From assembly GCA_025450075.1 (NCBI GenBank), contig JANWIC010000009.1, forward strand, positions 38,368 to 102,367: a stretch of DNA of 64,000 nt. Direction: 5' to 3'. The notes below the pieces were generated by a model. The model did not search any database. It was given only the letters and a program-made list of their open reading frames with translations, and was not told the origin of the DNA. Shown here piece by piece: positions 47,243 through 62,026 of this stretch. This DNA is from Patescibacteria group bacterium. GTDB taxonomy: Bacteria > Patescibacteriota > Dojkabacteria > JAKAPS01. A program made the translations under genes and the position numbers. The first letter of the stretch is position 1. The number at the start of each line of letters is the position of its first letter.

Positions 47243-47243
47243 T

Positions 47244-49271
47244 ATGGCAAATCCTTTGATAAGTATCAAAAATATAACAAAGACGTATAAAGAGAAAAAA
47301 AATCGTATTCAAGCTTTGGATCATTTAACTCTCGATATATACAAAGGAGAGTTCCTTGTTATTATGGGGCCATCGGGAAGTGGAAAATCTACTCTACTAG
47401 ATATTCTTGCATGTATTGATACACCAGATGAAGGAAGTGTCTGGTATAGGGATTTGGAACTTACTAAGGCTTCTTCAAAAATTATTGCTTTATACCGACA
47501 AAGAATTATTGGAATTGTATTCCAAAGAAACTTTAACCTTATTCGAAATTTATCAGTCAACACAAATTTGCTTTTGCCTCGATTATTAAATAAGGTTCAT
47601 GAAAGACAAGCAGATTTTGATTCACTTAACTTATTACTTGATTTGAATCTGAAAGAAATTGAAAAGCGGCCAGCAGAAACACTTTCATTGGGTGAGCAAC
47701 AAAGGGTAGCAATTGCCCGAGTTCTTATGAATAACCCGGAAATTATTATTGCTGATGAACCAACTGGAAATTTGGATAGTGCAAATGGAGCAAGGCTAAT
47801 GGAAATATTAAAAAAGCTCAATGAAGAGAATGGTAAAACTATTATTATCGTTACCCACAATCCTGAATTTGCCACACTTGCAAGCAGGGTAATATATCTC
47901 AAAGACGGAAAAATTGAAAGAACTGAAGTTAGAATAGATAAATCTACAAATGAAGATGATACAAGTGAAAATATTTTAAAAACTGAGAAAGCAAAACCTT
48001 TTAGATTGTCTACAGCCATATGGTTAGCTTCTCAGTTATTCATGAAAAACAAATACCGCTTTATTATAACTCTTTCAAGTATTATCCTTGCATTAGCAAT
48101 TCTAGTTGTACAGATAGATTTAGTTAATCTGTCACCTGAAACTATTTCAGCAAGTAAAGATGCAACTGGATACAATAATGAGATAATTGGTTCTCAACAA
48201 ATTGTTATTGCGGCACAAGGAAAGGAATACTTTGATAATCCTTGGCTTCTAAACCCATACCTACCGATCTCTCCAGGAAGACTTGTAACAAAGGGAGGAA
48301 TAGCAAACATTAGTTCGATACCGCATGTAAAGGATGCCTATCCGGTTATTCCACTTGAAGTGAAAACACCAAATATCTCTTTTTTTGCAGAAACCGGATC
48401 ACCGGTAGCCACTTCCAATCTCCCATCAACATATTTTGTATCTGGTGCGTATTTTAAAACAGACACGCAACATGCAATCATCCTTAATGAGGAGATAGCT
48501 CGTGTTATAGCAGGGGGAAGTGATGTCACTTCCCTTATTGGAACGACAATTCCTATCCAAGTGAGTATTCGTGAGATTCCATTATCGCAAAATGTCTCCA
48601 TTCATGAGAATGCAACAATAGTTGGAATTCAAAATTATGCTGAGCCTTGGATTGTTGCCCAGGTTCCTTATGCCTTTGGAGATTTAATTCAAAACAATAT
48701 TCTGAAAGGATACCCCATAACAAAAATTGATGTTGATGGCGCATCTCATCTTTCCCAGGTTAAAGATGCTTTGGGTAATATGGGATATGCTGCATTTAGC
48801 CAAACAGACGAATTGCATATTCTTGATATTATCATTAATCTTATTGCTATTGTGTTATTAAGCATCATTCTCTTAAACTTTATTGCCATTTGCATCAATA
48901 TCCTAAATGCAATTGTTATTCTTGTGGTGAAAAAATCTCGTATGCTTATGGCGCTATTATCTATTGGGGTCAGGAAAAATGACATAAAAAAATACATTCT
49001 CCTTCAAGGAATAATTATTGGAACCATTGCAGGCATAGGAGGATGGGTACTGGGATATGTATTTTCTGATATTCTTGCAAATGATATTACGGTTACAATA
49101 CTTGGCGGATCTAAAACCGGTGCAGGAAATCCTTTATTATTTGTTTCAAGCCCCGGTGAAATGGTTATTTTAATTTTAATATCGATTGTTTTGGCAATAC
49201 TAGAAGTTACATATTATATGTATAAGATTCCGTCGAAGAAATCTGTGTTGAAAATATTACGAAGAGAATAA
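47244..49271 (+). CDS. ABC transporter, fused ATPase-FtsX permease (MacB-like)
   Basis: N-terminal ATPase 'GPSGSGKSTLLDILACID', signature 'LSLGEQQRVAIARVL', Walker B 'IIIADEPTGNLD'. C-terminal FtsX-type 4-TM permease with a large extracytoplasmic domain between TM1 and TM2. ATG 47244 is directly after the malQ stop. Confidence 0.85.
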   Translation: MANPLISIKNITKTYKEKKNRIQALDHLTLDIYKGEFLVIMGPSGSGKSTLLDILACIDTPDEGSVWYRDLELTKASSKIIALYRQRIIGIVFQRNFNLIRNLSVNTNLLLPRLLNKVHERQADFDSLNLLLDLNLKEIEKRPAETLSLGEQQRVAIARVLMNNPEIIIADEPTGNLDSANGARLMEILKKLNEENGKTIIIVTHNPEFATLASRVIYLKDGKIERTEVRIDKSTNEDDTSENILKTEKAKPFRLSTAIWLASQLFMKNKYRFIITLSSIILALAILVVQIDLVNLSPETISASKDATGYNNEIIGSQQIVIAAQGKEYFDNPWLLNPYLPISPGRLVTKGGIANISSIPHVKDAYPVIPLEVKTPNISFFAETGSPVATSNLPSTYFVSGAYFKTDTQHAIILNEEIARVIAGGSDVTSLIGTTIPIQVSIREIPLSQNVSIHENATIVGIQNYAEPWIVAQVPYAFGDLIQNNILKGYPITKIDVDGASHLSQVKDALGNMGYAAFSQTDELHILDIIINLIAIVLLSIILLNFIAICINILNAIVILVVKKSRMLMALLSIGVRKNDIKKYILLQGIIIGTIAGIGGWVLGYVFSDILANDITVTILGGSKTGAGNPLLFVSSPGEMVILILISIVLAILEVTYYMYKIPSKKSVLKILRRE

Positions 49272-49272
49272 T

Positions 49273-51234
49273 ATGGGAAAAATTATTGAATTAAAAGAAA
49301 TTACGAAAAGATATCACTTAAAGGAAGAAGTGGTGGTTGCACTTGATGCGCTATCAGTAGAAATCTATGATAATGAATTCATTGTTATTATGGGGCCTTC
49401 TGGAAGCGGCAAATCAACTCTTGTTAATATCCTTGCTGGAATGGATCATCAGGTAAAAGGTTCTTTGTTATATAAAGGTATTGATATTTATCATGGAAGC
49501 AAAAAAATACTTTGGTTATATAGGCAAAAAGTAGTAGGACTTGTCTTTCAAACTCTCAACCTCATACCTGGGACAACTGTTGGATATAATATAAAGTTGC
49601 CAAGATATATTTCATCAATCAAAGAAAGCAGTATCAATTTTGATAAGGATTTGTTGCTTAATGATTTAGGTATTAAACTTAAAAAGTCATCCATTGTGGA
49701 TAATCTCTCACTTGGTGAGCAGCAGCGTGTAGCTATAGCCAGGGCTTTAATGAATGATCCAGATATCTTAATAGCTGATGAACCAACTGGAAACCTGGAT
49801 AGCGCGAATGGGACTAGGCTTATGGAAATTCTTATTCATTTGCACAAAGAAAGTAAAAAAACAATTGTTATTGCAACCCATAACCCAGAGATAGCGCTTG
49901 CAGCTGATAGGGTAATATATCTAAAAGACGGGAGAATTGATCGAATAGAGGTTCATACAGACAAAAGTTCTCAAGAATTGGCGGCTGGTGGAATGCATAC
50001 TATACAAACAGGTCGATTCGACATGTTGAAAAAAATAGCTCTTGCATTTTTCAACCTAAGGAAGGATTTTATGAAATATTCATTGATGACGTTCGCATTC
50101 GGTGTTTTTATATCCATTCTCGTATCAATTAGCTTGTTTAGTTATGTTGTAATAAATAACTTATTGCTTGCATTTGCTCCCCATTCATTTTCACAGACAT
50201 ATGAGCTTACACAGCCATTGTTACAAAAGCTTCCTGATATTCCTATTACTCAACATACAATTGACACACTTAATCGTTTACCTGGAGTAGGAAGTGCTTA
50301 TCCTATTACTCATTTTTATGGAGATATGGTTTACAACCATACAAGCAAGACTCTTTATGCTGCAACCGGCTCATCTGTAACAAAAGCAAGACAATCGGAA
50401 GAAACCATTTCTTCTGGAAGATATTTTTTGAAAGATGACGAACATAGCATTATCTTAACCCCATCTTCTCTTCATGTATTGGGTATCACAAATGGAGGTG
50501 ACATAATTGGCAAGAAAATTGAATTGGATGTATCCCTGAATCCAGATACAGCAAAAACTCAACAAATACAAGTTTATGTTACAGTTGTGGGAATTTTAAA
50601 AAATGACTTAATGCTTTTTCCAAATCTTCTTCCTTCTAATTTCTTCTCAATTGCTGGATTTAAAGGAACTGAACCATTTGATTCTGCATATATATATGTC
50701 CAGGATCCAAGTTATATCGGAAATGTAGGGAGTAAAATACAAAATATGAGATATCAATCAATTCTGCTATCAGATATGACCAAAGGAAGCTCTGACGGTG
50801 CAGCTATTACTCAAAGCTGGTTGTTCATTATTGGATTTGTTGTTCTTACAACAGTGGTTTTCAGTATGATCAATTTCTTAACTGTAATTTTTAATGAAAG
50901 AATTCGAGAGGTAGGTATATTGAAAGCAATTGGTGCAAGTGCAAAAGATATTATATTTCTTTATGCTTGGGAAGGTGCATTTATAGGAATTGGGATAGGG
51001 TTTATTGCTGTTCTTTTGTGCATTCAAGAAATTTCAATATTAAATAGCTTTTTACAAACCCAGTTCCTTCAAAATGCTACAGTTACATCTACTATTGGAA
51101 TTACATATGGTGGAAGTGAGAAGGCCATAACTTTTATTGTAAGTATTTTAGTCGGAATCTTAACAATTGCTTATCCAGCGATTTGGGGTGCACGGATAAA
51201 TATTATGAAGGCACTTGGAAGGGGAATATCATAA
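49273..51234 (+). CDS. ABC transporter, fused ATPase-FtsX permease (MacB-like), tandem paralog
   Basis: 'GPSGSGKSTLVNILAGMD', 'LSLGEQQRVAIARAL', 'ILIADEPTGNLD', and a C-terminal FtsX permease. 1-nt gap from the upstream paralog. Confidence 0.85.
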   Translation: MGKIIELKEITKRYHLKEEVVVALDALSVEIYDNEFIVIMGPSGSGKSTLVNILAGMDHQVKGSLLYKGIDIYHGSKKILWLYRQKVVGLVFQTLNLIPGTTVGYNIKLPRYISSIKESSINFDKDLLLNDLGIKLKKSSIVDNLSLGEQQRVAIARALMNDPDILIADEPTGNLDSANGTRLMEILIHLHKESKKTIVIATHNPEIALAADRVIYLKDGRIDRIEVHTDKSSQELAAGGMHTIQTGRFDMLKKIALAFFNLRKDFMKYSLMTFAFGVFISILVSISLFSYVVINNLLLAFAPHSFSQTYELTQPLLQKLPDIPITQHTIDTLNRLPGVGSAYPITHFYGDMVYNHTSKTLYAATGSSVTKARQSEETISSGRYFLKDDEHSIILTPSSLHVLGITNGGDIIGKKIELDVSLNPDTAKTQQIQVYVTVVGILKNDLMLFPNLLPSNFFSIAGFKGTEPFDSAYIYVQDPSYIGNVGSKIQNMRYQSILLSDMTKGSSDGAAITQSWLFIIGFVVLTTVVFSMINFLTVIFNERIREVGILKAIGASAKDIIFLYAWEGAFIGIGIGFIAVLLCIQEISILNSFLQTQFLQNATVTSTIGITYGGSEKAITFIVSILVGILTIAYPAIWGARINIMKALGRGIS

Positions 51235-51282: not shown

Positions 51283-53010
51283 ATGAAAAAATCAATTGTT
51301 AAGAAAATATTAAAAGATTGTGAATATTGTGTAAAAGAAATAGGAAGAGATGTGATTAGCGCCAACATACTGCTATATGTCCTTATACTCGATCCTGAAG
51401 TGCATGGAGAGCTATTATTAAACAACACTGATATGCATACTCTCCATTTTCTTCTTAACCCATACCATGTCAGGAAAAATACTCCTCTTAAAATATCAGT
51501 CAGTGAAGAAGTAAAATCTATTCTAAATGGAAGCGAAAATGATGCTAGCGCTTTAGATATCTTTAAAGGTGCAATCAAACAAAAATATATTAAGGATATT
51601 TTTACGAAAGCAGGTTATGTTCCCGGAAATGATCAAAATACCATTTTATCAAAATATACAAAGAAAATAGACGATGGGGTAGCTCATCAGGAAGATATAG
51701 ATAAGTATGAAAAGATAACAAATCATTTAGGAAACAGGAATGTTATGATAATGGGAGCAATGGGATCCGGCAGATTTGAATTTATAAAATCATATGCAAA
51801 GTATAGTAGTGCGAATTTTTCCATCTATTATTTTGATTTATTTAAATGCTTAAAACTTGAAGAAGATCGTCTATTTGGCATTGTCAACGGTATATTTGAT
51901 GAATTAAGAGATGATTATCTCTATATCCCCAATTTTTTGAAAGTAATGATTTGGGTTCGTTCGCTAAAAATGCATAATATATATATACTTCTTGAAGAAC
52001 TTGCCAATAGGGGAAAAATAATTACAAAGGTAAATAAAAATACATTTGATTCAAAAGAATTTCAATTAAGTAAACAATTTAATTTCTTTTCAATTAATAT
52101 TCCGCCAATAACGATAGATCAGTTGTATGGCATTCTCAATTCATATGCTTTTGCATATGAAAAATTTTATCATATTAATATTCCAAAAGAAGAAATTAAA
52201 AGAATAATAAAGGAAGCAAATTTTAAAGATACTGCGCTTGCTCAACCAGGTAAATCATTAAAAAGGCTCATGCATTTTGCAATGATCACTTATGGCCAAG
52301 ATGAGACAATTTTACAGAAACCTAAAGATAAGGGGAGTTTTAGTGAAAACCTATCACTTGAACAACATCTAAATAAATCAATAATTGGACAAGCGAGAGT
52401 CATTGAGGAAATATCATATGAAATTGGTAAAATTAATTTTCTTGAAGGCGGTATTGTTAAATCCTTCCTTTTTCAAGGAGAAATAGGGTGTGGAAAATTG
52501 AAAACTGCAACAGAGATGAGCAAATTCCTTTTTGGAGAAGATTCTCTTCGATATATAGATATGGGAGTTTACAGCCAATTTCCATTCAAGATGAAAATAT
52601 ATGAAAAGTTAGATCGATTAATCCAGACAATGTATGGAGGTATCATATTTATAGATAATTTTGAAGAATTAGATACAACACAAATAGATATCTTTTCATA
52701 TATTAAAATGAAGGTAAAAGAAGCAAATTTTGAAGGTCTTATGGCCCCAATTATTATCATTGCTTCGAGTAGGAAACCTGTTACAGAGATACCAAACTAT
52801 GCATATATAATTGAACATTTTGATAAAATAGTGTATTTTAATAAGCTGACGATTCGGGATCTTGAAAAAGTAGCTGAAATTCAATTAATGAAAATAAAAG
52901 GAATAATTCAGACGGATAAGGTATTTAGTACGTTCGTTATAAGCGCTCAAGCAAATCCCCAGCTCAATGCGTTGGGAATCAAGAAGTTGATTACATCCAT
53001 GTGTTTGTAA
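51283..53010 (+). CDS. Clp/Hsp100-like protein with degenerate Walker motifs in both AAA+ modules (predicted pseudo-ATPase)
   Basis: Clp_N-like 'ANILLYVLILDPEVHGELLL'. D1 'VMIMGAMGSGRFEFI' (K to R, T to F). D2 'FLFQGEIGCGKLKTATEMSKFLFGEDSLRYIDMGVY' (GK followed by L, not T/S). Walker B positions read 'IFIDNFEE' instead of DE. ClpA D2-like 'SIIGQARVIEEISYEI' is present. Confidence 0.5.
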   Translation: MKKSIVKKILKDCEYCVKEIGRDVISANILLYVLILDPEVHGELLLNNTDMHTLHFLLNPYHVRKNTPLKISVSEEVKSILNGSENDASALDIFKGAIKQKYIKDIFTKAGYVPGNDQNTILSKYTKKIDDGVAHQEDIDKYEKITNHLGNRNVMIMGAMGSGRFEFIKSYAKYSSANFSIYYFDLFKCLKLEEDRLFGIVNGIFDELRDDYLYIPNFLKVMIWVRSLKMHNIYILLEELANRGKIITKVNKNTFDSKEFQLSKQFNFFSINIPPITIDQLYGILNSYAFAYEKFYHINIPKEEIKRIIKEANFKDTALAQPGKSLKRLMHFAMITYGQDETILQKPKDKGSFSENLSLEQHLNKSIIGQARVIEEISYEIGKINFLEGGIVKSFLFQGEIGCGKLKTATEMSKFLFGEDSLRYIDMGVYSQFPFKMKIYEKLDRLIQTMYGGIIFIDNFEELDTTQIDIFSYIKMKVKEANFEGLMAPIIIIASSRKPVTEIPNYAYIIEHFDKIVYFNKLTIRDLEKVAEIQLMKIKGIIQTDKVFSTFVISAQANPQLNALGIKKLITSMCL

Positions 53011-53072: not shown

Positions 53073-55046
53073 ATGAAGCAGCATACTGTTCCACAAAATA
53101 TAATGAGTGTGGAGTTTAAGATAATAGGGGACTTGAGTATAAGGCAATTTATTTATATTAGTTTGTCTGGTGGTCTTGCCTTTATCTTTTGGCTTACATA
53201 CTTGCCGGGAATTATAAAATATACCCTTATTTTCATTTCGGTAGTATTAGGATTATTAGTAACGTTCGCTAAGATAAATGAACGGCCATTTGACCAATGG
53301 ATTACTAATTTTATTACAGCTGTCATGCTGCCTACTCAGCGGATTTGGGCAAAACATCATGAATTGCCGTATTATTTAGAAGAACAACCTGCTCCAACTT
53401 CAAAAGTTGAAGATCAGAAAAAAGAAAAGGGGTATCAGAAAGTGGTTTCATATCTTAATTCACGAAACCTCCCTACTGATGAAATGTATAAATCGAACAC
53501 TGTACTTGATATTGAAGAAATAAAAATGCTTACAAATATAGGAAAATTAATGAATCAAGCGATGACTCCTGACCCTGATGCAATTTTGCAAGCAGCGGCA
53601 GCGCCAGTTCAGGTTCCAAATCCAGCACAAGCGGTAATTCCTCCACAGCAAAGCAATGCAAATATACCCATTGAACCCCTTGTACAACCTACAACTCCAA
53701 TTCAACCTAAAGTAGAAATACCGGTTCAGCAGGTGGCACAACCACAGCATGTAGTGATTCCTCCACCAGTTTCAGTTCCTCCTACACCACCTGGGATGAC
53801 ATCTATTCCTGATCCAATCGTCCAGCCGGCTGTAAATGTTTCTTCAGTGCAATCACCATATCCACAGGTACAGACTCCTGCACCCCAGCAAATTGACCCA
53901 CCCATTGTTATTCCGGAAGCAATCCCTGATAAGGAAAAGCCGGTTCAAGATGAAATCATTACGATAGAGCCAAACACGGTGGTAAAATTGGATGATTTAA
54001 AAAATCTAAAATCCAGCGTATTAGATTCCCTAGACAATGAATTAAAAAGCTTGGATACAAGAACAGCAGTAATTGAACCTAAAACGGAAACTCAAAAACA
54101 ACAGACTGAGCTTGAAGCATCACTTGCAGATTTAATTCCTAATTTTGGAGGTCCTCTGCCACCACTTCCACCAAAACAAACTCCTGAAACACCCCCAGCA
54201 CCTCCAGTGATAGTAGTACCTGATACAGCATCAATACCTGAACCGAAAATGGAAATACCGGAAGTTGTCATGAAGGAACCAGATGTTACTAGTGAGCCGA
54301 TTAAAACCTCAGTCATTGAACAGCCTTTCGAACAGATACCAGAAGAAAGAGTTCCTGAATATACTCAAACAATTGATGAGCCAGTAGTTGTGATCAATGA
54401 ATCAGATATTGTCCATCCTGAAGATGTTGTTACATCTATCCAGGAAACTGAAGCCCCTCCAGTACAGCCGGTAACAGTAGATACTGTTGTAGCAGCAGAG
54501 CCGCAAGTTATTCAAACTGAAATAGTAGCCCCTGATGTGGAAAATCGTCCTCAAGCAATGACTTCTGATGAATTAGCAATTTTACAAGAAGAAAATCGAA
54601 GATTACGGGAAGAATTATTAAAAGCCAAAACCGAGGCATATCCAATTACTGATCAGCAACCTGAACAGGTAGAAGTAAGAGATGATAACAAAATATTAGG
54701 ACATATGCCTGATTTTGTTAATTTCCCAAATGTTTTAAGCGGAGTAGTTGTTGATTCAAACGATAAAACTGTTGAGGATGTAGTAATAATCATTAAGAAT
54801 AAATCAAAACAGATTATGAGGGCAATGAAAACAAATATTCTCGGACAATTCTATTCTCGAAATCCTCTTCCTAATGGAAACTATGATATTGAAGCAAATA
54901 AAGAAGGATATGTTTTTGAGAACATGGGGATCAATTTGACCGGAGTCGTCATGAAGCCTATGATTATAAGGACGAAGAAATTTTCAAGTATCCAAAGTGG
55001 AACCGAATTTAATTTAATGAATAACTCAAACGATGGCAGCAAATAG
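53073..55046 (+). CDS. PrgI/VirB3-like membrane protein with long Pro-rich extracellular extension and C-terminal CarboxypepD_reg-like beta domain
   Basis: N-terminal 'VPQNIMSVEFKIIGDLSIRQFIYISLSGGLAFIFWLTYL' matches the PrgI-family pattern (two TM). Middle ~300 aa is P/Q/V/E-rich low complexity plus a coiled coil 'LAILQEENRRLREELLKAK'. C-terminal 'LSGVVVDSNDKTVEDVVIII...NGNYDIEANKEGYVFE' is carboxypeptidase-regulatory-domain-like. Confidence 0.5.
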   Translation: MKQHTVPQNIMSVEFKIIGDLSIRQFIYISLSGGLAFIFWLTYLPGIIKYTLIFISVVLGLLVTFAKINERPFDQWITNFITAVMLPTQRIWAKHHELPYYLEEQPAPTSKVEDQKKEKGYQKVVSYLNSRNLPTDEMYKSNTVLDIEEIKMLTNIGKLMNQAMTPDPDAILQAAAAPVQVPNPAQAVIPPQQSNANIPIEPLVQPTTPIQPKVEIPVQQVAQPQHVVIPPPVSVPPTPPGMTSIPDPIVQPAVNVSSVQSPYPQVQTPAPQQIDPPIVIPEAIPDKEKPVQDEIITIEPNTVVKLDDLKNLKSSVLDSLDNELKSLDTRTAVIEPKTETQKQQTELEASLADLIPNFGGPLPPLPPKQTPETPPAPPVIVVPDTASIPEPKMEIPEVVMKEPDVTSEPIKTSVIEQPFEQIPEERVPEYTQTIDEPVVVINESDIVHPEDVVTSIQETEAPPVQPVTVDTVVAAEPQVIQTEIVAPDVENRPQAMTSDELAILQEENRRLREELLKAKTEAYPITDQQPEQVEVRDDNKILGHMPDFVNFPNVLSGVVVDSNDKTVEDVVIIIKNKSKQIMRAMKTNILGQFYSRNPLPNGNYDIEANKEGYVFENMGINLTGVVMKPMIIRTKKFSSIQSGTEFNLMNNSNDGSK

Positions 55047-55776
55047 GATTATGTCAACAACCCAAGATCATCTCGATATAGAAGATGTGAGGGATGATAT
55101 GATGGTTTTAAAAGATGGAAGAGTATGTATTATTCTTGAAACAAGTGCAGTGAATTTCAGCTTACTTTCAGAAATAGAACAGGATGCGAAGATAGCCGCA
55201 TTTGCAGGATTACTCAATTCAATCAATTACAACCTCCAAATAGTTGTACACACAGAAAGTGTTGATGTCTCAAAATATATTGTAACCCTTGAAAATTACA
55301 AGAATAAACAAACGAGTGAGAAGATCAAATACCAAATTTCAAACTATATTGAGTTTATAAAAAACCTTATTAAAAAGAATGATGTGCTTGATAAACGATT
55401 CTATGTTGTAATACCATATATACCTTATGGAGTAAAAAGGACAAGCCCTTTGAGACAAGTATTTGGTAAACCAAATAGAATTCTTGATTTAGGGAGGCTT
55501 CTTGAAACTGCAAAACTTGACCTCTATCCAAAAAAAGATGGAATCGTTAAACTTTTAATTAGAATGGGAATTAAAACGAGGCAACTAACTACAGAAGAAA
55601 TTATTAAGCTTTTTTATAAGCTCTATAATTCAGAAGGGAATACTTTACCAAAATCACGATTTACAGAAGATGATGTTCTTGCTGCAGTAGTTGGAACACC
55701 TAAAAATTACGATACCGTACAGGAAGATATTACTATCCCATATACAAATAATGAACCCAACGACATTAAACAATAA
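55033..55776 (+). CDS. T4SS-associated protein resembling the N-terminal domain of VirB4/TrbE, encoded separately
   Basis: 'LDIEDVRDDMMVLKDGRVCIILETSAVNFSLLSEIEQDAKIAAFAGLLNSINYNLQIVV' resembles the VirB4 N-terminal region. Its stop (55776) overlaps the VirB4 ATG (55751) by 26 nt. It is paralogous to ORF 59403-59858. Confidence 0.45.
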   Translation: MAANRIMSTTQDHLDIEDVRDDMMVLKDGRVCIILETSAVNFSLLSEIEQDAKIAAFAGLLNSINYNLQIVVHTESVDVSKYIVTLENYKNKQTSEKIKYQISNYIEFIKNLIKKNDVLDKRFYVVIPYIPYGVKRTSPLRQVFGKPNRILDLGRLLETAKLDLYPKKDGIVKLLIRMGIKTRQLTTEEIIKLFYKLYNSEGNTLPKSRFTEDDVLAAVVGTPKNYDTVQEDITIPYTNNEPNDIKQ

Positions 55777-57769
55777 TATAGCACCTCCAACGGTTGATCC
55801 GTTTGGAAAACCTTTACAACCGAAGGAAAATCAAACCCAACCAAAACAGTTGATTCCTATTCAGGAAATAAAGAGTATGGTAACAAGTTTACTTGGAATG
55901 CTACCTTTTTTTAAAACAACCGAGGAACCAATTGATCCTGTATACCAAAAGCGAAAAGAAAACATGCAACGCTTTTCCGATGGAATGGTAGATATCCGTG
56001 ATATAATAGCTCCTTCAGCAATAGAGATTGATTTTGATTATGTAAAGATAAATAAGAAATTTTATAAAACTTACTTTGCTGCACTTTTTCCTCGTTTTGT
56101 ATCATCCAATTGGTTGTCACCTTTGATTAATTTCGAAAAGACACTAGATATCTCAATGTTTTACTATCCTGTAGATTCAAGGGTAGTTATGCAAAAGCTT
56201 CGAAGAAAAATTGCTGAAATGGAAGCAACATTAAATACATTGGCTGAACAAGGTAAAGTGCTTGACCCAAATGTAAAAGTTGCATTGGAAGATGCAAAGA
56301 ATTTACAGGAGCAATTGGCAAAAGGAAGTGAAAAATTTTTCCATTATGCTGTATATATAACGATTCAAGCAGATACTATTGTTGAATTAAATGATATCGG
56401 AAAAAACCTTGAAACAATACTAGGCGCTAGTGGTTTGGTTGTAAAGTCATCATATTTGCAGCAAGAATTTGGTTTCCAATCTACACTTCCTGAGAATAAC
56501 GATAAATTGCAAGTAGTCCGGAATATGGATACTACATCTATAGCCACTACTTTTCCATTTGTCTCATCTGACTTAACATCTGATACTGGTATATTATATG
56601 GAATCAATAAATCTAATAAAAGTTTAGTAATTTATGATAGGTTCACAAGTGAAAACTATAATACAGTCATATTTGCACGGTCTGGTGCAGGGAAAAGTTA
56701 CCTGGCAAAACTTGAAGCGCTTCGATCATTGATGTTGGGGGCACAGGTAATTATCATTGATCCTGAGCGCGAATATGAAAAACTCTGTCAGGCATTAGGT
56801 GGAGCTTACATTTCTTTCTCCCAAGATGGGGCAAGCAAAATTAATCCATTTGACCTATCTGGTATACGGGAACCAGGAGAGGATGAGTTACGTTTTAAAA
56901 TCCTTTCTCTTCACGGGTTATTTAGGATTATGCTTGGGGAAAATGGTGAAAGCTTATCATCAATTGAAAACGCAATTTTGGATAAAGCATTGATTGAGAC
57001 GTACAGACAAAAAGGTATTACTGTAGATGCAAGTACTCAAACAAAAGAACCTCCTCTTTTAGAAGACTTGTTTAAAGTTTTACAAGGAATGGAGGAACCT
57101 GAAGCACAAGGTATTGCAAAGAGATTAGAGAAATTTATACGTGGTAGTGCAACTGGGATCTTTGACCAGCGTTCTAATGTTGAGATCAATAATCCATTCA
57201 CTGTTTTTTCGATTCGTGACTTATCTGATGAATTACGTGCTCCGGCAATGTATCTCATGCTTGACTATATTTGGACTCGAGTGAAGAAAGAAAAAGTAAA
57301 AAGAATCTTAATGGTCGATGAAGCATGGATTTTGATGAAGTATCCTGATAGTGCACAATTTATGAATGCTATTGCAAAGCGTGCACGTAAATATTATCTT
57401 GGTTTGACCACGATTACACAGGATGTTGAAGATTTTCTTTCAACAGATTATGGGAAAGCAATAGTGAATAATGCATCAATGCAGATTCTTCTTAAGCAAA
57501 GTCCTAGTGCAATAGATAATATTCAACGTGTTTTCTTCCTATCTGAAGGAGAAAAGGAACTATTGTTGAATGCGGCACAAGGCGAAGGATTATTCTTTGC
57601 AGGGGCAAATCATGTAGCAATTCAAATTATTGCAAGTCAATATGAACATTCTCTCATTACAACTAACCCAACTGAGACACAAACAGAACCAACCATTCAA
57701 AATCAAAATTTAAGACAGGTTGTGCAGGAACAAGTAAAAGCGGTATCACTTGAAGCTCAAGTTGAATAG
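55751..57769 (+). CDS. VirB4/TraE/PrgJ-like type IV secretion ATPase
   Basis: 'DIRDIIAPSAIEIDFDYVKINKKFYKTYFAALFPRFVSSNWLSPLIN', Walker A 'VIFARSGAGKSYLAKLEALRSLMLGAQVIIIDPEREYEKL', Walker B 'ILMVDEAWILM', 'GLTTITQDVEDF'. ATG at 55751; the track start 55691 overlaps the upstream gene further. Confidence 0.85.
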   Translation: MNPTTLNNNIAPPTVDPFGKPLQPKENQTQPKQLIPIQEIKSMVTSLLGMLPFFKTTEEPIDPVYQKRKENMQRFSDGMVDIRDIIAPSAIEIDFDYVKINKKFYKTYFAALFPRFVSSNWLSPLINFEKTLDISMFYYPVDSRVVMQKLRRKIAEMEATLNTLAEQGKVLDPNVKVALEDAKNLQEQLAKGSEKFFHYAVYITIQADTIVELNDIGKNLETILGASGLVVKSSYLQQEFGFQSTLPENNDKLQVVRNMDTTSIATTFPFVSSDLTSDTGILYGINKSNKSLVIYDRFTSENYNTVIFARSGAGKSYLAKLEALRSLMLGAQVIIIDPEREYEKLCQALGGAYISFSQDGASKINPFDLSGIREPGEDELRFKILSLHGLFRIMLGENGESLSSIENAILDKALIETYRQKGITVDASTQTKEPPLLEDLFKVLQGMEEPEAQGIAKRLEKFIRGSATGIFDQRSNVEINNPFTVFSIRDLSDELRAPAMYLMLDYIWTRVKKEKVKRILMVDEAWILMKYPDSAQFMNAIAKRARKYYLGLTTITQDVEDFLSTDYGKAIVNNASMQILLKQSPSAIDNIQRVFFLSEGEKELLLNAAQGEGLFFAGANHVAIQIIASQYEHSLITTNPTETQTEPTIQNQNLRQVVQEQVKAVSLEAQVE

Positions 57770-57796
57770 GAGTATAAGATTTGTGAGGTGATATAA

Positions 57797-58078
57797 TTGA
57801 TAAAATTTATCCTAGATTTACTTCCCCCTCGTGCTGATGTTTACCAAATTCCCGAACTTTCAAACACAATAAATAACATTACTGATACGATTGCTTGGAT
57901 TGTATTGAGTCTACTCATCTTATTTATCATTAGTTTTGGAGTTCAATTCATTTTGGCAGCGGATAGTCCACAAGAACGTGTTAAGCTAAAAAACAAAATC
58001 ATTTGGGCTCTTGTTGGTCTATTCATTATCTTAACAGCAAAACCATTAAGTATATGGATTCAATCAATTGTAAAATAA
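57797..58078 (+). CDS. VirB2/TrbC-pilin-like small two-TM protein
   Basis: 93 aa. TTG start with a GAGGTG RBS 6 nt upstream. Two hydrophobic helices 'IAWIVLSLLILFIISFGVQFIL' and 'IIWALVGLFIILTA'. It is located between the VirB4-like and VirB6-like genes. Confidence 0.35.
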   Translation: MIKFILDLLPPRADVYQIPELSNTINNITDTIAWIVLSLLILFIISFGVQFILAADSPQERVKLKNKIIWALVGLFIILTAKPLSIWIQSIVK

Positions 58079-59205
58079 AGAGTATATGGTATAGATTACA
58101 CAGTCAGCTTGTTGATCTATTTCCTTTTGTTCTAGTCTTTATCCTTATTTTTGCATTTTCTATCAACACCTTGACCAGTACATATATAGGAAATACAAAT
58201 GCGAATACTTCATTCATTGTATCAAAGAACCAGATAGGTGATGGGCCATCAGAAGAATGTTTCACTAATTTTTCATTAAATATATTCAGCACGGGTATTT
58301 CTTTTTTAGTTTGTCATCTTTCATTTTTCTTTGATGATTATGTTGCATTTACACATAACCTTTTCTCTCCATCAGACACTTTATATTCATCTTACCAAAA
58401 TGAATTATATTTACCGATGAAAAGACTTGCATTTATATTATTACCGCTCTCATTTTTGATAGCTGTAGCAATAAATATCCTTCGAGCAATGATTGATTTT
58501 GGAAGTGATATTCATGTCTTACGGTATATCCAAGAACTGTTATTCTCTCTAATCATACTTTTGATTCTTCCAGCTATTGGAAGGTTTAGTATTGATTTAA
58601 ATAACGGCATCTCCAGCTATATTATATCTACAATAACAGGTGGATATACTTCTCAAAATGGTCTCGCATCGTTGATTTCACAAAATATCAATATCAATGA
58701 AATTGCACAGCAACAATTTATACCAGCAGTAGCATCCAATATCTTATGGATATCATTTTTTATAGCTATGCTATTTCTTGTGATCTTTTTTATTGTTCGT
58801 TTTATAGTTATATGGCTTGTGTTTTTAGTACTTCCATTACTGATTTCTTTAGAATTTATTCCTTATATGAAAGGAATCAAAGAGACAATTATTACAAAAC
58901 TTTGTCAGTTTATCATTGTTCAACCAGTTTTTCTCTTAGGATTAGGTTTCTTTTTTATTATCATGAAAGAGCAAATGGACAGTATCGCAAAATTTATTCT
59001 TGCGATTTGTTCGCTTATTACCTTAGGATTTATTCCATCATATATATCAAGTGTCTCGGGAGGAAAGTTAATGTCCTTATCAACAAATGATATGAAGCAT
59101 TTCTTTCATAGTGTTGGACAGCGGATTGATATTGCAATTGGCTGGATAGAAGAATCTCTTTCAAAACCTTATGAGCTTCCTTTAGAAAAACCATCCAAGA
59201 AATGA
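58054..59205 (+). CDS. VirB6/TrbL-like polytopic membrane protein
   Basis: ~380 aa with an N-terminal extracytoplasmic region, then 5-6 TM (e.g. 'ILWISFFIAMLFLVIFFIVRFIVIWLVFLVLPLLI'). The assignment rests on size, topology and T4SS context only. Start taken at ATG 58054 (MDSIN...); the track start is 58003. Confidence 0.35.
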   Translation: MDSINCKIKSIWYRLHSQLVDLFPFVLVFILIFAFSINTLTSTYIGNTNANTSFIVSKNQIGDGPSEECFTNFSLNIFSTGISFLVCHLSFFFDDYVAFTHNLFSPSDTLYSSYQNELYLPMKRLAFILLPLSFLIAVAINILRAMIDFGSDIHVLRYIQELLFSLIILLILPAIGRFSIDLNNGISSYIISTITGGYTSQNGLASLISQNININEIAQQQFIPAVASNILWISFFIAMLFLVIFFIVRFIVIWLVFLVLPLLISLEFIPYMKGIKETIITKLCQFIIVQPVFLLGLGFFFIIMKEQMDSIAKFILAICSLITLGFIPSYISSVSGGKLMSLSTNDMKHFFHSVGQRIDIAIGWIEESLSKPYELPLEKPSKK

Positions 59206-59206
59206 T

Positions 59207-59413
59207 ATGAAAATTGCTTACTACATCTTAATATTATCTATTGTAGCTATCTGGACAATATTACCTTTACAACTATATATGAAAGTACTTTTAACAATAA
59301 TGGTTATTGGGATTCATATTTGTTTTCAGGTAAAAGTAAAGGATAAGCATCTCTATACATGGATTTTGATTATATTACTATATCTGATGAGGCGAAAAAG
59401 ATATGTCAAATAG
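59207..59413 (+). CDS. VirB3-like small two-TM protein (second module)
   Basis: 68 aa with two hydrophobic helices. It sits in the same relative position as the PrgI-like gene of the first module, immediately upstream of the second N-domain gene. Confidence 0.3.
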   Translation: MKIAYYILILSIVAIWTILPLQLYMKVLLTIMVIGIHICFQVKVKDKHLYTWILIILLYLMRRKRYVK

Positions 59414-59858
59414 GATTGGAGATATACTTAAAATTGATCATATTGAGGGGTCATACATTTTAATGAAAGATAAAACAAAAAAAATTGTTGTTGAAATTTC
59501 TTCTGTTTACGGTGATAAGAATAGTATTTTTCAACCAATCCTATCTTCAATTGATACGGATATTATAGTTTTATATAGGAAATCGTTACTTGTTGAAGAT
59601 GATTACAAAGATTATTTCCATGAAATGATAGAGCGGAATATACAAGCAAAACTTCTTCCGGAAGTACTTGCATATATTAAAGAATTGAAGGTACAACTTG
59701 AAAAAATGTCGCATTATAGTGTGCTTTTTATAATTACTATGAATAATAGAATATCCACTATAGATAGTATTCATACCATGTTTTCTCATCTCAATGTTGA
59801 ATATGAAATCTATGAAAATTATAAATTACAGCAATTTTTGAACACTCTTTTCTTATGA
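59403..59858 (+). CDS. VirB4 N-domain-like protein (paralog of 55033-55776)
   Basis: 'LKIDHIEGSYILMKDKTKKIVVEISSVYGD' aligns with 'LDIEDVRDDMMVLKDGRVCIILETSAVNFS' of ORF 55033. It overlaps the downstream VirB4-like ATG by 4 nt. Confidence 0.4.
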   Translation: MSNRIGDILKIDHIEGSYILMKDKTKKIVVEISSVYGDKNSIFQPILSSIDTDIIVLYRKSLLVEDDYKDYFHEMIERNIQAKLLPEVLAYIKELKVQLEKMSHYSVLFIITMNNRISTIDSIHTMFSHLNVEYEIYENYKLQQFLNTLFL

Positions 59859-61423
59859 AAACACTACTTTTAAATATTTTAGATGATATATCAGCTTTAA
59901 TACCATCTTTTGAAAATATTAAAATAGATTTCAGAAAGAGACAGAAAAAAGATTTCATAATTAAGAAGAATGTTAATATACCTGAACATATATTTACTCT
60001 TAAAGAATTTTACCAATATATTTCCCTAAATGAGCAAAACTATCAATTCATCGATATTCATGTAGACAATGACTCCAAGAATCTATTATCGGCATTACTA
60101 AAAGAATACGAACAAATATATCTTGCTATGCATATTAACAAGCTAAAAAAAGAAGAAGTACATAATTCATTAAAGAAAAAACTGGCAAAACTATATGAAG
60201 AAAAAATATCAACTTCTCAAAAAGGAATATTATCTACTGGATTTCTTGATCATGAGATTCAGGATATAAAGAAAAAAATAGATGAATATGTTATACAAGC
60301 AGATCCGTATATGGTTACCTTAAAGATGAGTATTAAATACGAAGCAGATATTCAAAAGTTGAAAATGCTTGCAACTATTTTTAATGTCAGCTTTTACCCA
60401 TTATATTTTAAACAATTGGTTTCATTACAGAGTTTTTTCTTATCTCCCGTATTAGATAATGAATACTCGCTTTTAAGTAATTTAGCTGTTGTAGATCCTT
60501 TTCCAGCATTTACTCCTGTTCAATGTAAAGGTATATTTATTGGACATGAAATGAATACTCAATCACCAATTTTTGAAGATTTCTTTGGATTTGAAAATTT
60601 TAATTCAGTAATTATGGCAAAATCAGGAGCTGGGAAAAGCCTTCTTGCTTCTATGCTTATGAAAAGGCTCCTTTTTGAAGGTATTGCGATTGTTGTTTTT
60701 GATCCTGAAAAAGAATATGAATCATTTTGTAATGCACTTCATGGCAAAAACTATTATGAAGAAGATATGGTCTTTATAGATGCCTATATGCAAAATAGCG
60801 AAAATATTTCATATTTTCTAAATTTACTTCCATTAATCTTTGAGAGTAGAGAAGACGGAGAAGAAATGTTTAGCTTTTTTCATGATTGTAGGACATATAG
60901 TGAAATTAAAGAAAAGATTGAGATGTTATCTGTCAAGAAGAAAAACAAATTACTTAGATATTTCCAGTCAGATAAGAAAAGGAGCTTGAAGGATTTTCAA
61001 ATTATTAATTTCGTCATTACATCTGATAAGAGTAAAATTGATTTATATAAGATTATTATGTACTGCATGAATAGAAATATTGGGAAAACAATATTATTTA
61101 TCGATGAAGCACATAAAGTAATGGATGATGAATATATAGCTCAGATAGTTAGACAGGTATCTAAGAGAGGGAGAAAACATAATCTTGGGATATGTGTCAT
61201 CTCACAAGATATCATTGATTTTGTACAAAATAAATGGAGTAAAGCAGTGATTTCAAATGCTACTTTCACTTTTCTTTTAAAGCAAGAATTAATCAATTTA
61301 CCGCTAATTAACAAAATCTTTGGAGTAGAAGATTATGAGGATTTCCTTTTGCATGCCCGTGTTGGAGAAGGCATATTTATGAGAAATGGTGAAATTCAAA
61401 AAGTCATATTTGACAAGATTTAA
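59855..61423 (+). CDS. VirB4-like ATPase, shorter paralog
   Basis: Walker A 'VIMAKSGAGKSLLASMLMKRLLFEGIAIVVFDPEKEYESF', Walker B 'ILFIDEAHKVM', 'GICVISQDIIDF'. The preceding 'FNVSFYPLYFKQLVS...VVDPFPAFTP' region aligns with the first VirB4 ('FGFQSTLPENN...TFPFVS'). Confidence 0.75.
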   Translation: MKTLLLNILDDISALIPSFENIKIDFRKRQKKDFIIKKNVNIPEHIFTLKEFYQYISLNEQNYQFIDIHVDNDSKNLLSALLKEYEQIYLAMHINKLKKEEVHNSLKKKLAKLYEEKISTSQKGILSTGFLDHEIQDIKKKIDEYVIQADPYMVTLKMSIKYEADIQKLKMLATIFNVSFYPLYFKQLVSLQSFFLSPVLDNEYSLLSNLAVVDPFPAFTPVQCKGIFIGHEMNTQSPIFEDFFGFENFNSVIMAKSGAGKSLLASMLMKRLLFEGIAIVVFDPEKEYESFCNALHGKNYYEEDMVFIDAYMQNSENISYFLNLLPLIFESREDGEEMFSFFHDCRTYSEIKEKIEMLSVKKKNKLLRYFQSDKKRSLKDFQIINFVITSDKSKIDLYKIIMYCMNRNIGKTILFIDEAHKVMDDEYIAQIVRQVSKRGRKHNLGICVISQDIIDFVQNKWSKAVISNATFTFLLKQELINLPLINKIFGVEDYEDFLLHARVGEGIFMRNGEIQKVIFDKI

Positions 61424-61480
61424 TGAATTTCTGAGCATCACTTTCATTATGATATAATACACTTAATTAAGATAAAAAAA

Positions 61481-61975
61481 ATGAATCGAAAAACTTCACA
61501 TGATAGTGAAACACCGGCAGTTGGTCAACAGGTTTTTACTGCATGTGCCTTTATCCATAGGAAGGTGGGCGGTAAAGAAAAAGTATTGTTAGCCAAAAGG
61601 GCAGATTCAAAGAAATTCTTGCCAGGTGTTTATGAGCTTCCGGGAGGGCATATAAACTTTGGTGAAGATATGAAAGAAGGTCTAAGACGTGAAATTGAAG
61701 AAGAATTGGAGGTTAAGATATCAATTGGAGACCCTTTCTTCGTTTTTACAGGAATGAATCCTATCAAAGGATCAAACTCTATAGAGGTCACTATGTTTCT
61801 CAACACTCCTGATGAAATAAAAATTCACCCTGAAGACCATTCAGCAATAATATGGGTTTCTGAAGAAGAGATACCTAGTATTTACACACATACAAAAGGC
61901 TCGGATGATATTGAAGTAGAAGCGATACGAAAAGGTTTTTCCTTTCTTAAAGGCATTCCTTGTCAATTTGTCTGA
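61481..61975 (+). CDS. NUDIX hydrolase
   Basis: Nudix box 'GGHINFGEDMKEGLRREIEEELEV' (GX5EX7REUXEEXGU). Confidence 0.8.
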   Translation: MNRKTSHDSETPAVGQQVFTACAFIHRKVGGKEKVLLAKRADSKKFLPGVYELPGGHINFGEDMKEGLRREIEEELEVKISIGDPFFVFTGMNPIKGSNSIEVTMFLNTPDEIKIHPEDHSAIIWVSEEEIPSIYTHTKGSDDIEVEAIRKGFSFLKGIPCQFV

Positions 61976-62026
61976 TGCATGAAACATCAATTTACATTGA
62001 TAGGAATTTAGAAGTATAATCACACT

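What the first reader, a model, noticed from the sequence alone, without database searches (positions are those of the whole stretch)
55033..59858. VirB4 N-terminal domain encoded as a separate, overlapping gene, in two copies
ORF 55033-55776 (247 aa) and ORF 59403-59858 (151 aa) share an N-terminal block: 'DIEDVRDDMMVLKDGRVCIILETSAVN' and 'KIDHIEGSYILMKDKTKKIVVEISSVYG'. Each immediately precedes, and overlaps, a VirB4-like ATPase gene, by 26 nt and 4 nt respectively. The block resembles the N-terminal region of classical VirB4/TrbE proteins, so these may be naturally split VirB4 subunits. The 86-nt overlap in the six-frame track could be misread as a frameshift. However, an in-frame ATG at 55751 gives a clean gene start, so a true two-gene arrangement is more likely than a pseudogene.
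Basis: partly seen in the sequence, partly recalled or inferred. Interest (0 to 1): 0.55.

Follow-up and report, generated by a model that had tools for sequence, protein, structure and literature searches.

The report
Split VirB4 ATPase: TrsD-like partner genes
Two small genes, each just upstream of a type IV secretion ATPase (VirB4) gene in this Patescibacteria genome, encode the first part of VirB4 as a separate protein; this split is real, but it is already described as the TrsD/TraC-like family, so only the very divergent second copy adds anything new.

Summary
ORF 55033-55776 (S1, 247 aa) and ORF 59403-59858 (S2, 151 aa) exist. Each overlaps a VirB4-type ATPase gene, by 26 nt if V1 starts at ATG 55751, and by 4 nt (ATGA).

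S1 belongs to a large family of stand-alone ~230-aa Patescibacteria proteins (Pfam PF26593 TraC-like; homologous to TrsD/TraD). It is not a frameshift. In 83 of 85 related loci the small gene and VirB4 are separate ORFs, in all three frame relations.

S1 and V1 map collinearly and without overlap onto single-chain VirB4 proteins. On the Clostridium sporogenes 866-aa VirB4, S1 covers residues 66-249 and V1 covers 283-865. One Amesbacteria MAG carries a PrgI-TrsD-VirB4 fusion.

S2 has no significant pairwise similarity to S1. Its small family does match the S1 family profile end to end (hhalign 90%, E 1.4e-6). It has the same predicted topology, and its top structural hits are also TrwK/VirB4.

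The separate piece is only the first half of the VirB4 N-terminal domain, not PF03135, which stays in the ATPase gene.

This arrangement is already published for Patescibacteria (Microb Genom 2025, PMC12102498). The new elements are the unannotated S2 family and a duplicated VirB3-like/TrsD-like/VirB4 triad. Interest is low.

The parts
53073..55046 (+). PrgI/VirB3-like membrane protein (657 aa). It has an N-terminal PrgI domain, a long proline-rich region and a C-terminal CarboxypepD_reg beta-sandwich. It overlaps the S1 start by 14 nt.
   Evidence: Pfam PF12666 PrgI, E 3.5e-9, residues 6-88; PF13620, E 4.4e-7. The same gene precedes the S1 homologue in L004/L005.
55033..55776 (+). S1: TrsD/TraC-like protein (247 aa). 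It is the stand-alone counterpart of the first ~200 residues of full-length VirB4.
   Evidence: 164 homologues of ~230 aa, carrying PF26593 TraC-like. NCBIfam TrsD E 1.2e-9 and VirB4_plasma 110-233/894 E 3.6e-9. Aligns to residues 66-249 of a fused 866-aa VirB4, E 7e-13. AF2 pLDDT 76; Foldseek top 14 hits are TrwK/VirB4.
55751..57769 (+). V1: VirB4 ATPase (672 aa from ATG 55751; the frame is open from TTG 55691). It has a variable N-terminal linker, the second half of the VirB4 N-terminal domain, and the P-loop C-terminal domain.
   Evidence: NF045971 CD1110-family VirB4, 382 bits (cutoff 325), profile 176-733/752. PF19044 E 2.5e-28. PF03135 part at 196-270 of the TTG-start protein. PDB 4AG5 VirB4 C-terminal domain, E 2.4e-54.
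57797..58078 (+). VirB2-like T4SS pilin (93 aa).
   Evidence: PF18895 T4SS_pilin, E 3.6e-14, 53 bits.
58003..59205 (+). Polytopic membrane protein, probably VirB6/TrbL-like (up to 400 aa; the true start may be further downstream).
   Evidence: The window's own Pfam TrbL match is not significant (E 0.58). The syntenic gene in L086 hits PF19590 TrbL_3 weakly. The position between the pilin and the second ATPase module is conserved.
59207..59413 (+). 68-aa two-helix membrane protein, a candidate minimal PrgI/VirB3-like partner of the second module.
   Evidence: Its 3-member family vs the PrgI N-terminal profile: hhalign probability 64%, E 6.6e-5, 60 columns in the expected register. A 75-79 aa gene sits in the same position in L086 and L087.
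59403..59858 (+). S2: a shortened, highly divergent TrsD/TraC-like paralogue (151 aa).
   Evidence: Only six ~150-aa relatives among 1.84 billion representatives. Family profile vs S1 family: 90.4%, E 1.4e-6, 149 columns. AF2 pLDDT 82.6 with the same strand/helix order as S1. Foldseek top 14 hits are TrwK/VirB4. Relatives always lie directly upstream of a 512-524 aa VirB4-like gene.
59855..61423 (+). V2: divergent second VirB4-like ATPase (522 aa). The Walker A motif (GAGKS) and Walker B motif (IDEA) are kept.
   Evidence: PF19044, PF12846 and PF01935 all above Pfam cutoffs. BLASTP vs V1 gives E 2e-17, including the N-terminal-domain region. NCBIfam VirB4 profiles, E 1.8e-29.

Best explanation
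This is a chromosomal Patescibacteria (CPR) type IV secretion locus of the monoderm (MPF-FATA-like) kind. In it the VirB4 ATPase is naturally encoded in two pieces. A small soluble TrsD/TraC-like protein (S1) supplies the first ~200 residues of the VirB4 N-terminal domain. The following gene (V1) supplies a flexible linker, the second half of the N-terminal domain and the ATPase domain. The gene order is VirB3-like (PrgI), then TrsD-like, then VirB4, with short overlaps that suggest coupled translation.

The inferred mechanism is that the three products assemble non-covalently into the same unit that a single-chain VirB4 forms with VirB3 at the membrane. In the R388 structure, VirB3 wraps the VirB4 N-terminal domain, and that domain also mediates VirB4 dimerisation.

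The locus holds a second, fast-evolving copy of this arrangement: pilin, VirB6-like, 68-aa VirB3-like candidate, S2, V2. There S2 is a trimmed 151-aa TrsD-like paralogue.

Shown here: homology, collinearity with fused VirB4 proteins, conservation as separate genes, and synteny. Inferred: physical assembly, translational coupling, and function in trans.
For: - Family: S1 has 164 homologues of ~230 aa carrying PF26593 TraC-like, in Patescibacteria. At least 561 relatives occur in one-genome-per-species GTDB.
- Separate genes: 83 of 85 loci have distinct S1-like and VirB4 ORFs in all three frame relations, 43 overlapping and 40 spaced.
- Collinearity: on NCBIfam VirB4_plasma, S1 covers 110-233 and V1 covers 292-893; on CD1110, V1 covers 176-733/752. 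On PF11130 TraC_F_IV, the Clostridium S1-like region covers 41-179 and V1 covers 278-372.
- Fused VirB4: on the C. sporogenes 866-aa protein, S1 covers 66-249 (7e-13) and V1 covers 283-865 (8e-61). Related C. botulinum pCBG is split, and differs at the junction by a 25-nt indel that carries AAGGAGG and ATG.
- Rosetta-stone fusion: L077 encodes PrgI, TraC-like and VirB4 in one 1584-aa ORF.
- Structure: S1 and S2 models, built from independent alignments, both have TrwK/VirB4 as their top 14 PDB hits.
- S2: family-level homology to S1. The positional equivalents of S2 in L004 and L012 match the S1 family at 96.5%, E 9e-10. Synteny is conserved.
- Literature: TrsD shares remote homology with the VirB4 N-terminal portion, has 2,272 homologues in Patescibacteria of which 1,664 lie next to VirB4, and is essential in Ca. 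S. epibionticum ML1 (PMC12102498). VirB3 wraps the VirB4 N-terminal domain, residues 15-400 (PMC9259494).
Against: - No direct evidence of an S1-V1 or S1-PrgI interaction.
- The Foldseek matches are modest (TM-score normalised to the query 0.35-0.48, E 4e-4 to 4e-2), and the output does not say which part of TrwK was aligned.
- S1 scores only 38 bits against the NCBIfam TrsD model (cutoff 200), so it is a homologue, not a curated member.
- S2 shows no significant similarity as a single sequence to S1 (E 1.4), to the S1 profile (E 0.035), or to the L004/L012-type second-copy family (E 0.46).
- One of 150 shuffles came close to the real profile score.
- The S1 family profile found no PDB sequence match.
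Confidence: 0.82

Rival explanations
1. Sequencing or assembly frameshift, or a pseudogene: S1 and V1 are really one VirB4 gene broken by an indel.
For: The V1 frame is +1 relative to S1 and stays open for 86 nt upstream of the S1 stop. Single-chain versions exist in Clostridium and in L077. A 25-nt indel is enough to switch between the two states.
Against: 83 of 85 related loci from independent assemblies keep two ORFs in frame relations 0, 1 and 2. Many have intergenic gaps, for example +28 nt in L004. Homologues are consistently ~230 aa. The window's exact S1 protein is also in an NCBI record as a 247-aa product.
Confidence: 0.03
2. S1 and S2 are extra duplicated copies of the N-terminal domain that V1 and V2 already carry (accessory paralogues), not the missing piece of a split VirB4.
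For: V1 and V2 keep an N-terminal-domain-like region before the P-loop, with a similar beta-beta-alpha-beta pattern by eye. Part of PF03135 lies in V1.
Against: S1 and V1 map to non-overlapping, consecutive segments of the same full-length profiles and of a fused protein. The S1 family profile vs the V1 N-terminal alignment is not significant (E 0.03, probability 1.7%). V1 lacks the first ~175 positions of the CD1110 model.
Confidence: 0.07
3. S2 is an unrelated small lineage-specific protein, and its likeness to S1 is chance plus AT-rich composition.
For: No pairwise or single-sequence-to-profile significance. No Pfam or NCBIfam hit for any of the 7 family members. One shuffled control scored 42.7 against the real 46.8.
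Against: The profile-profile match is end to end and beats all 150 shuffles. An AF2 model built without any S1-family sequence has the same secondary-structure order as S1 and the same top PDB hits. It occupies the same position as the clearly TraC-like proteins of L004 and L012.
Confidence: 0.1
4. Programmed +1 ribosomal frameshifting in the 26-86 nt overlap makes a fused S1-V1 protein in vivo.
For: The V1 frame is +1 relative to S1 and the two overlap. Fused forms are functional elsewhere.
Against: No slippery motif is visible in 55691-55776 (by eye). Relatives show every frame relation, as well as gaps and in-frame stops, so no conserved shift site exists.
Confidence: 0.02

Closest known systems
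TrsD (pGO1/pSK41) / TraD (pIP501) family, NCBIfam NF041427; Pfam PF26593 TraC-like
   Same: A small soluble protein encoded directly upstream of the VirB4 ATPase in monoderm T4SS, remotely homologous to the VirB4 N-terminus. S1 hits the TrsD model (E 1.2e-9), and the identical database protein carries PF26593.
   Different: S1 scores far below the NCBIfam cutoff (38 vs 200 bits), so it is a distant relative of the staphylococcal and enterococcal proteins. S2 is 151 aa and hits neither model.
Patescibacteria T4SS as described in Microb Genom 2025 (PMC12102498)
   Same: The same component set (VirB4, TrsD, PrgI/VirB3, VirB6, VirB2-like pilin), with TrsD next to VirB4 in a chromosomal location.
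   Different: That survey found about one VirB4 and one TrsD per genome (2,425 VirB4 in 2,407 assemblies). This locus has a second divergent VirB3-like/TrsD-like/VirB4 set. The survey reported no VirB3-VirB4 fusions, whereas L077 is one.
Single-chain VirB4 (R388 TrwK; Clostridium sporogenes plasmid 866-aa VirB4; Mycoplasma ICE Mbov_0397 VirB4)
   Same: S1 plus V1 are collinear with these proteins and together cover the same segments. The S1 and S2 folds match TrwK.
   Different: Here the polypeptide is broken after the first N-terminal subdomain, and V1 begins with a variable low-complexity linker.
VirB3-VirB4 fusion proteins (e.g. Campylobacter plasmids, cited in PMC12102498)
   Same: They show that VirB3 and VirB4 act as one unit. 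L077 fuses PrgI, TrsD-like and VirB4 in that order.
   Different: The window has the opposite state: three separate genes.

Membership tests
Pfam PF26593 TraC-like | Match to the Pfam model | tested here: met
   For S1: the identical protein P0001 and nearly all homologues carry precomputed PF26593. The local Pfam copy returned no hit for S1, so this rests on the precomputed annotation. For S2: no PF26593 on P0121 or on the L086 homologue, so not met.
NCBIfam NF041427 TrsD/TraD | Score at or above the curated cutoff (200 bits) | tested here: not met
   S1 scores 38.3 bits, E 1.2e-9, residues 8-127 on profile 13-142/201. It is a homologue but not a curated member. S2 and its 6 relatives have no hit.
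TrsD/TraD-type split VirB4 partner | Gene immediately upstream of, and co-oriented with, a VirB4 ATPase that lacks the first N-terminal segment | tested here: met
   S1/V1 overlap by 26 nt and S2/V2 by 4 nt. V1 starts at position 176 of the 752-position CD1110 model. The arrangement is conserved in 83 of 85 loci and in S2 relatives.
TrsD/TraD-type split VirB4 partner | Homology to the N-terminal segment of single-chain VirB4 | tested here: met
   S1: fused Clostridium VirB4 residues 66-249, E 7e-13; VirB4_plasma 110-233; Foldseek TrwK. S2: only through its family profile and fold.
TrsD/TraD-type split VirB4 partner | Physical association with VirB4 and/or VirB3 | not testable with these tools
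   Supported only indirectly, by the L077 fusion and by the R388 structure (PMC9259494).
VirB4 ATPase (CD1110-family, NF045971) | Score above the curated cutoff; Walker A and B motifs | tested here: met
   V1: 382 bits vs cutoff 325; GAGKS and DEAW motifs in the translation. V2: 92.6 bits, below the cutoff, so not a curated member. It is above Pfam cutoffs for PF19044, PF12846 and PF01935 and keeps GAGKS and IDEA.
Conjugative T4SS (DNA transfer) | Relaxase and type IV coupling protein near the locus | not tested
   phmmer with V1 and V2 found no further VirB4-like ATPase in the window. The flanking genes scanned are housekeeping genes. No dedicated relaxase or coupling-protein search was run.

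The most novel reading that the evidence does not exclude
In one Patescibacteria clade the whole VirB3-like/TrsD-like/VirB4 triad has been duplicated, and the two sets have specialised. One is linked to the large surface-exposed PrgI protein. The other is linked to the pilin, VirB6 and a minimal 68-aa VirB3-like protein. They might act as two non-equivalent ATPase positions of one machine, analogous to the central and outside VirB4 subunits of R388. S2 would then represent an unannotated minimal TrsD family.
Probability: 0.15. Interest if true: 0.5.

Novelty: new member of a known kind. Interest (0 to 1): 0.22.

Why it matters
The T4SS is one of the few systems shown to be essential for the epibiotic lifestyle of Patescibacteria, and the role of TrsD is still unassigned. 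The data here give a concrete structural hypothesis: TrsD is the detached first subdomain of the VirB4 N-terminal domain, the part that contacts VirB3. That hypothesis rests on the split and fused Clostridium pair, which differ by 25 nt, and on the PrgI-TrsD-VirB4 fusion. The basic fact is already published, so the window mostly confirms known biology. The divergent second module is a modest addition that profile-based surveys would miss.

Tried and rejected
- Pairwise BLASTP found nothing for S1 vs S2, S1 vs V1, S2 vs V2, or S2 vs the L004/L012 positional equivalents.
- The local Pfam scan gave no hit for S1 and only noise for S2 and its family. NCBIfam gave nothing for the S2 family.
- The PDB sequence search with the S1 family profile returned only a chance hit.
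- The word-indexed 5.8-billion-protein search found only S2 itself. The exhaustive HMMER search was needed to find relatives.
- The S1 family profile vs the V1 N-terminal alignment was not significant, so there is no sequence support for an internal duplication of the VirB4 N-terminal domain.
- The profile of the L004/L012-type second-copy family vs S2 alone was not significant (E 0.46).
- The look-up of encoding contigs had no record for the exact S1 protein.
- Fold-search output gives no target ranges, so I could not confirm which TrwK segment S1 and S2 align to.
- The V1 start codon could not be settled from conservation, because homologue N-termini are variable linkers.
Full report
**Observation.** The ORFs are as described. 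S1 is 55033-55776 (247 aa) and S2 is 59403-59858 (151 aa), both on the + strand. S1's stop (TAA, 55774-55776) lies inside the next reading frame. That frame is open from TTG 55691 (86-nt overlap) and has an ATG at 55751 (26-nt overlap). S2 and the next gene share ATGA at 59855-59858. Both downstream genes are VirB4-type ATPases. V1 scores 382 bits on the NCBIfam CD1110-family VirB4 model (cutoff 325) and E 2.5e-28 on PF19044. V2 is divergent but above Pfam cutoffs for PF19044, PF12846 and PF01935. V1 and V2 are homologous to each other (E 2e-17).

BLASTP S1 vs S2 gives E 1.4. The S1-family profile vs S2 alone gives E 0.035, although it aligns exactly that block.

**What S1 is.** S1 has 164 homologues in the 5.8-billion-protein database. 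Almost all are stand-alone proteins of ~210-260 aa from Patescibacteria (Beckwithbacteria, WWE3 and others), and they carry Pfam PF26593, named TraC-like. A species-level genome scan found at least 561 relatives.

S1 hits the NCBIfam TrsD/TraD model (E 1.2e-9, below the cutoff). It also hits positions 110-233 of the 894-position Mycoplasma ICE VirB4 model, while V1 hits positions 292-893 of the same model. V1 begins only at position 176 of the 752-position CD1110 model.

An AlphaFold model of S1 (pLDDT 76) has R388 TrwK/VirB4 chains as its top 14 PDB matches. Nothing convincing follows them.

**Not a frameshift; fused orthologues exist.** I analysed 85 related loci. In 83 of them the S1-like ORF (median 232 aa) ends in a stop and a separate VirB4 ORF follows.
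- Frame relations 0, 1 and 2 occur in 15, 39 and 29 loci.
- Spacing runs from -116 to +651 nt, with 43 overlapping pairs and 40 non-overlapping pairs.
- One locus (L069) has no adjacent VirB4.
- One locus (L077, Amesbacteria GW2011_GWA1_47_20) encodes PrgI, CarboxypepD_reg, TraC-like and VirB4 as a single 1584-aa ORF.

In Firmicutes plasmids, tblastn with S1 finds 376 records.
- C. botulinum pCBG has a PrgI gene, a 257-aa 'TraC family protein' and a 620-aa ATPase gene.
- The related C. sporogenes AM553 plasmid has PrgI and one 866-aa ATPase.
- The two differ at the junction by a 25-nt indel that carries AAGGAGG, an ATG and the stop.
- On the fused protein, S1 aligns to residues 66-249 (E 7e-13) and V1 to residues 283-865 (E 8e-61).

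The detached piece is not PF03135. Neither small protein hits it, and its C-terminal part lies inside V1. It also lies inside the L070 VirB4. On PF11130 (F-type TraC N-terminal region), the Clostridium S1-like segment covers 41-179 and V1 covers 278-372. So only the first half of the VirB4 N-terminal domain is detached.

**What S2 is.** S2 found only itself in the word-indexed search. The exhaustive HMMER search found six ~150-aa relatives at 25-34% identity.
- Their alignment matches the S1 family end to end: hhalign 90.4%, E 1.4e-6, 149 columns.
- The score of 46.8 beats 150 of 150 column shuffles (mean 14.5, max 42.7), so the nominal E-value is optimistic.
- An AlphaFold model built from S2-family sequences only (pLDDT 82.6) has the same order of strands and helices as S1.
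- It again has TrwK/VirB4 as its top 14 PDB hits.
- S2 relatives always sit in the same order: pilin, TrbL/VirB6-like, 75-79 aa membrane protein, S2-like, 512-524 aa VirB4-like. They have 4-nt overlaps, and RNase H and Wzz genes follow, as in the window.

In the closer relatives L004 and L012, the small gene in the same position (200 and 174 aa) is clearly TraC-like: 96.5%, E 9e-10 against the S1 family. It is not detectably similar to S2 itself. S2 is therefore a trimmed, fast-evolving paralogue. Its module also has the lowest G+C in the window (0.29-0.31).

Summed BLAST scores place both types of second VirB4 nearer to Patescibacteria V1 than to Firmicutes VirB4. That fits a divergent internal duplication.

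**Mechanism (inferred).** In the R388 structure the VirB4 N-terminal domain (residues 15-400) is wrapped by VirB3 and mediates VirB4 dimerisation (PMC9259494). The gene order here is VirB3-like, TrsD-like, VirB4, with short overlaps. L077 fuses the three in that order. I conclude that S1 is supplied in trans and completes the V1 N-terminal domain at the VirB3 interface, and that S2 does the same for V2.

The 68-aa membrane protein upstream of S2 aligns to the PrgI N-terminal profile (64%, E 6.6e-5). This suggests that the whole triad is duplicated. None of these interactions was tested here.

**Comparison with what is known.** The arrangement is published. [quoted passage not shown] It was the most abundant T4SS component in Patescibacteria, with 2,272 homologues of which 1,664 lie next to VirB4. 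It is essential in Ca. S. epibionticum ML1 (PMC12102498). That survey found about one VirB4 per genome and no VirB3-VirB4 fusion. The additions here are the second module, the S2 family (which no curated profile detects) and the L077 fusion.

**Verdict.** On novelty, this is a new member of a known kind. Interest is low, about 0.2.

Noticed in passing
L077:9239-13993 (LCOA01000014.1, Candidatus Amesbacteria GW2011_GWA1_47_20): A single 1584-aa ORF fuses PrgI/VirB3-like, CarboxypepD_reg, TraC/TrsD-like and VirB4. The 2025 Patescibacteria T4SS survey reported no VirB3-VirB4 fusions. I have not excluded an assembly error.
   Followed up: partly
L077 (protein residues ~731-1272), L070:10758-14414, L084:10789-14799: Three of 85 Patescibacteria VirB4 genes carry an intein with a LAGLIDADG homing endonuclease. 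In L077 it sits directly after the Walker A motif (GSGK|S...VHN|S). In L070 and L084 the intein was detected by Pfam, but its insertion site was not read.
   Followed up: partly
L088:4400-4700 vs L090:4400-4700 (C. botulinum pCBG vs C. sporogenes AM553 plasmid): Closely related Clostridium plasmids carry the same VirB4 either split (257 aa + 620 aa) or fused (866 aa). They differ by a 25-nt indel at the junction that holds a ribosome-binding site, a start and a stop. This is a natural experiment on the split.
   Followed up: partly
window 59207-59413: A 68-aa two-helix membrane protein directly upstream of S2 resembles the PrgI/VirB3 N-terminal hairpin at profile level (64%, E 6.6e-5). The VirB3-like/TrsD-like/VirB4 triad therefore appears to be duplicated.
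   Followed up: partly
window 53073-55046: The PrgI/VirB3-like protein is 657 aa instead of ~100 aa. It has a ~450-aa proline-rich low-complexity region and a C-terminal CarboxypepD_reg beta-sandwich. The same architecture is seen in L004 (635 aa) and within the L077 fusion.
   Followed up: no
window 58001-62000: The second T4SS module has the lowest G+C of the window (0.287-0.307, against ~0.33-0.37 elsewhere). Its proteins are near-orphans, which fits accelerated evolution.
   Followed up: no
window 47235-51234: Two tandem genes each fuse an ABC ATPase to an FtsX-type permease (MacB-like, 678 and 653 aa). They lie upstream of the T4SS locus, separated from it by one gene (next item).
   Followed up: no
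window 51283-53010: A 575-aa protein between the MacB-like genes and the T4SS locus has only a weak ClpB-like AAA match (TIGR03346 E 5.8e-7, well below the cutoff).
   Followed up: no
L069:333-1211: An S1 homologue (292 aa, with an N-terminal extension) is followed by a 503-aa protein unrelated to VirB4. This is an example of a TrsD-like gene not linked to VirB4, as the 2025 survey noted for some lineages.
   Followed up: partly
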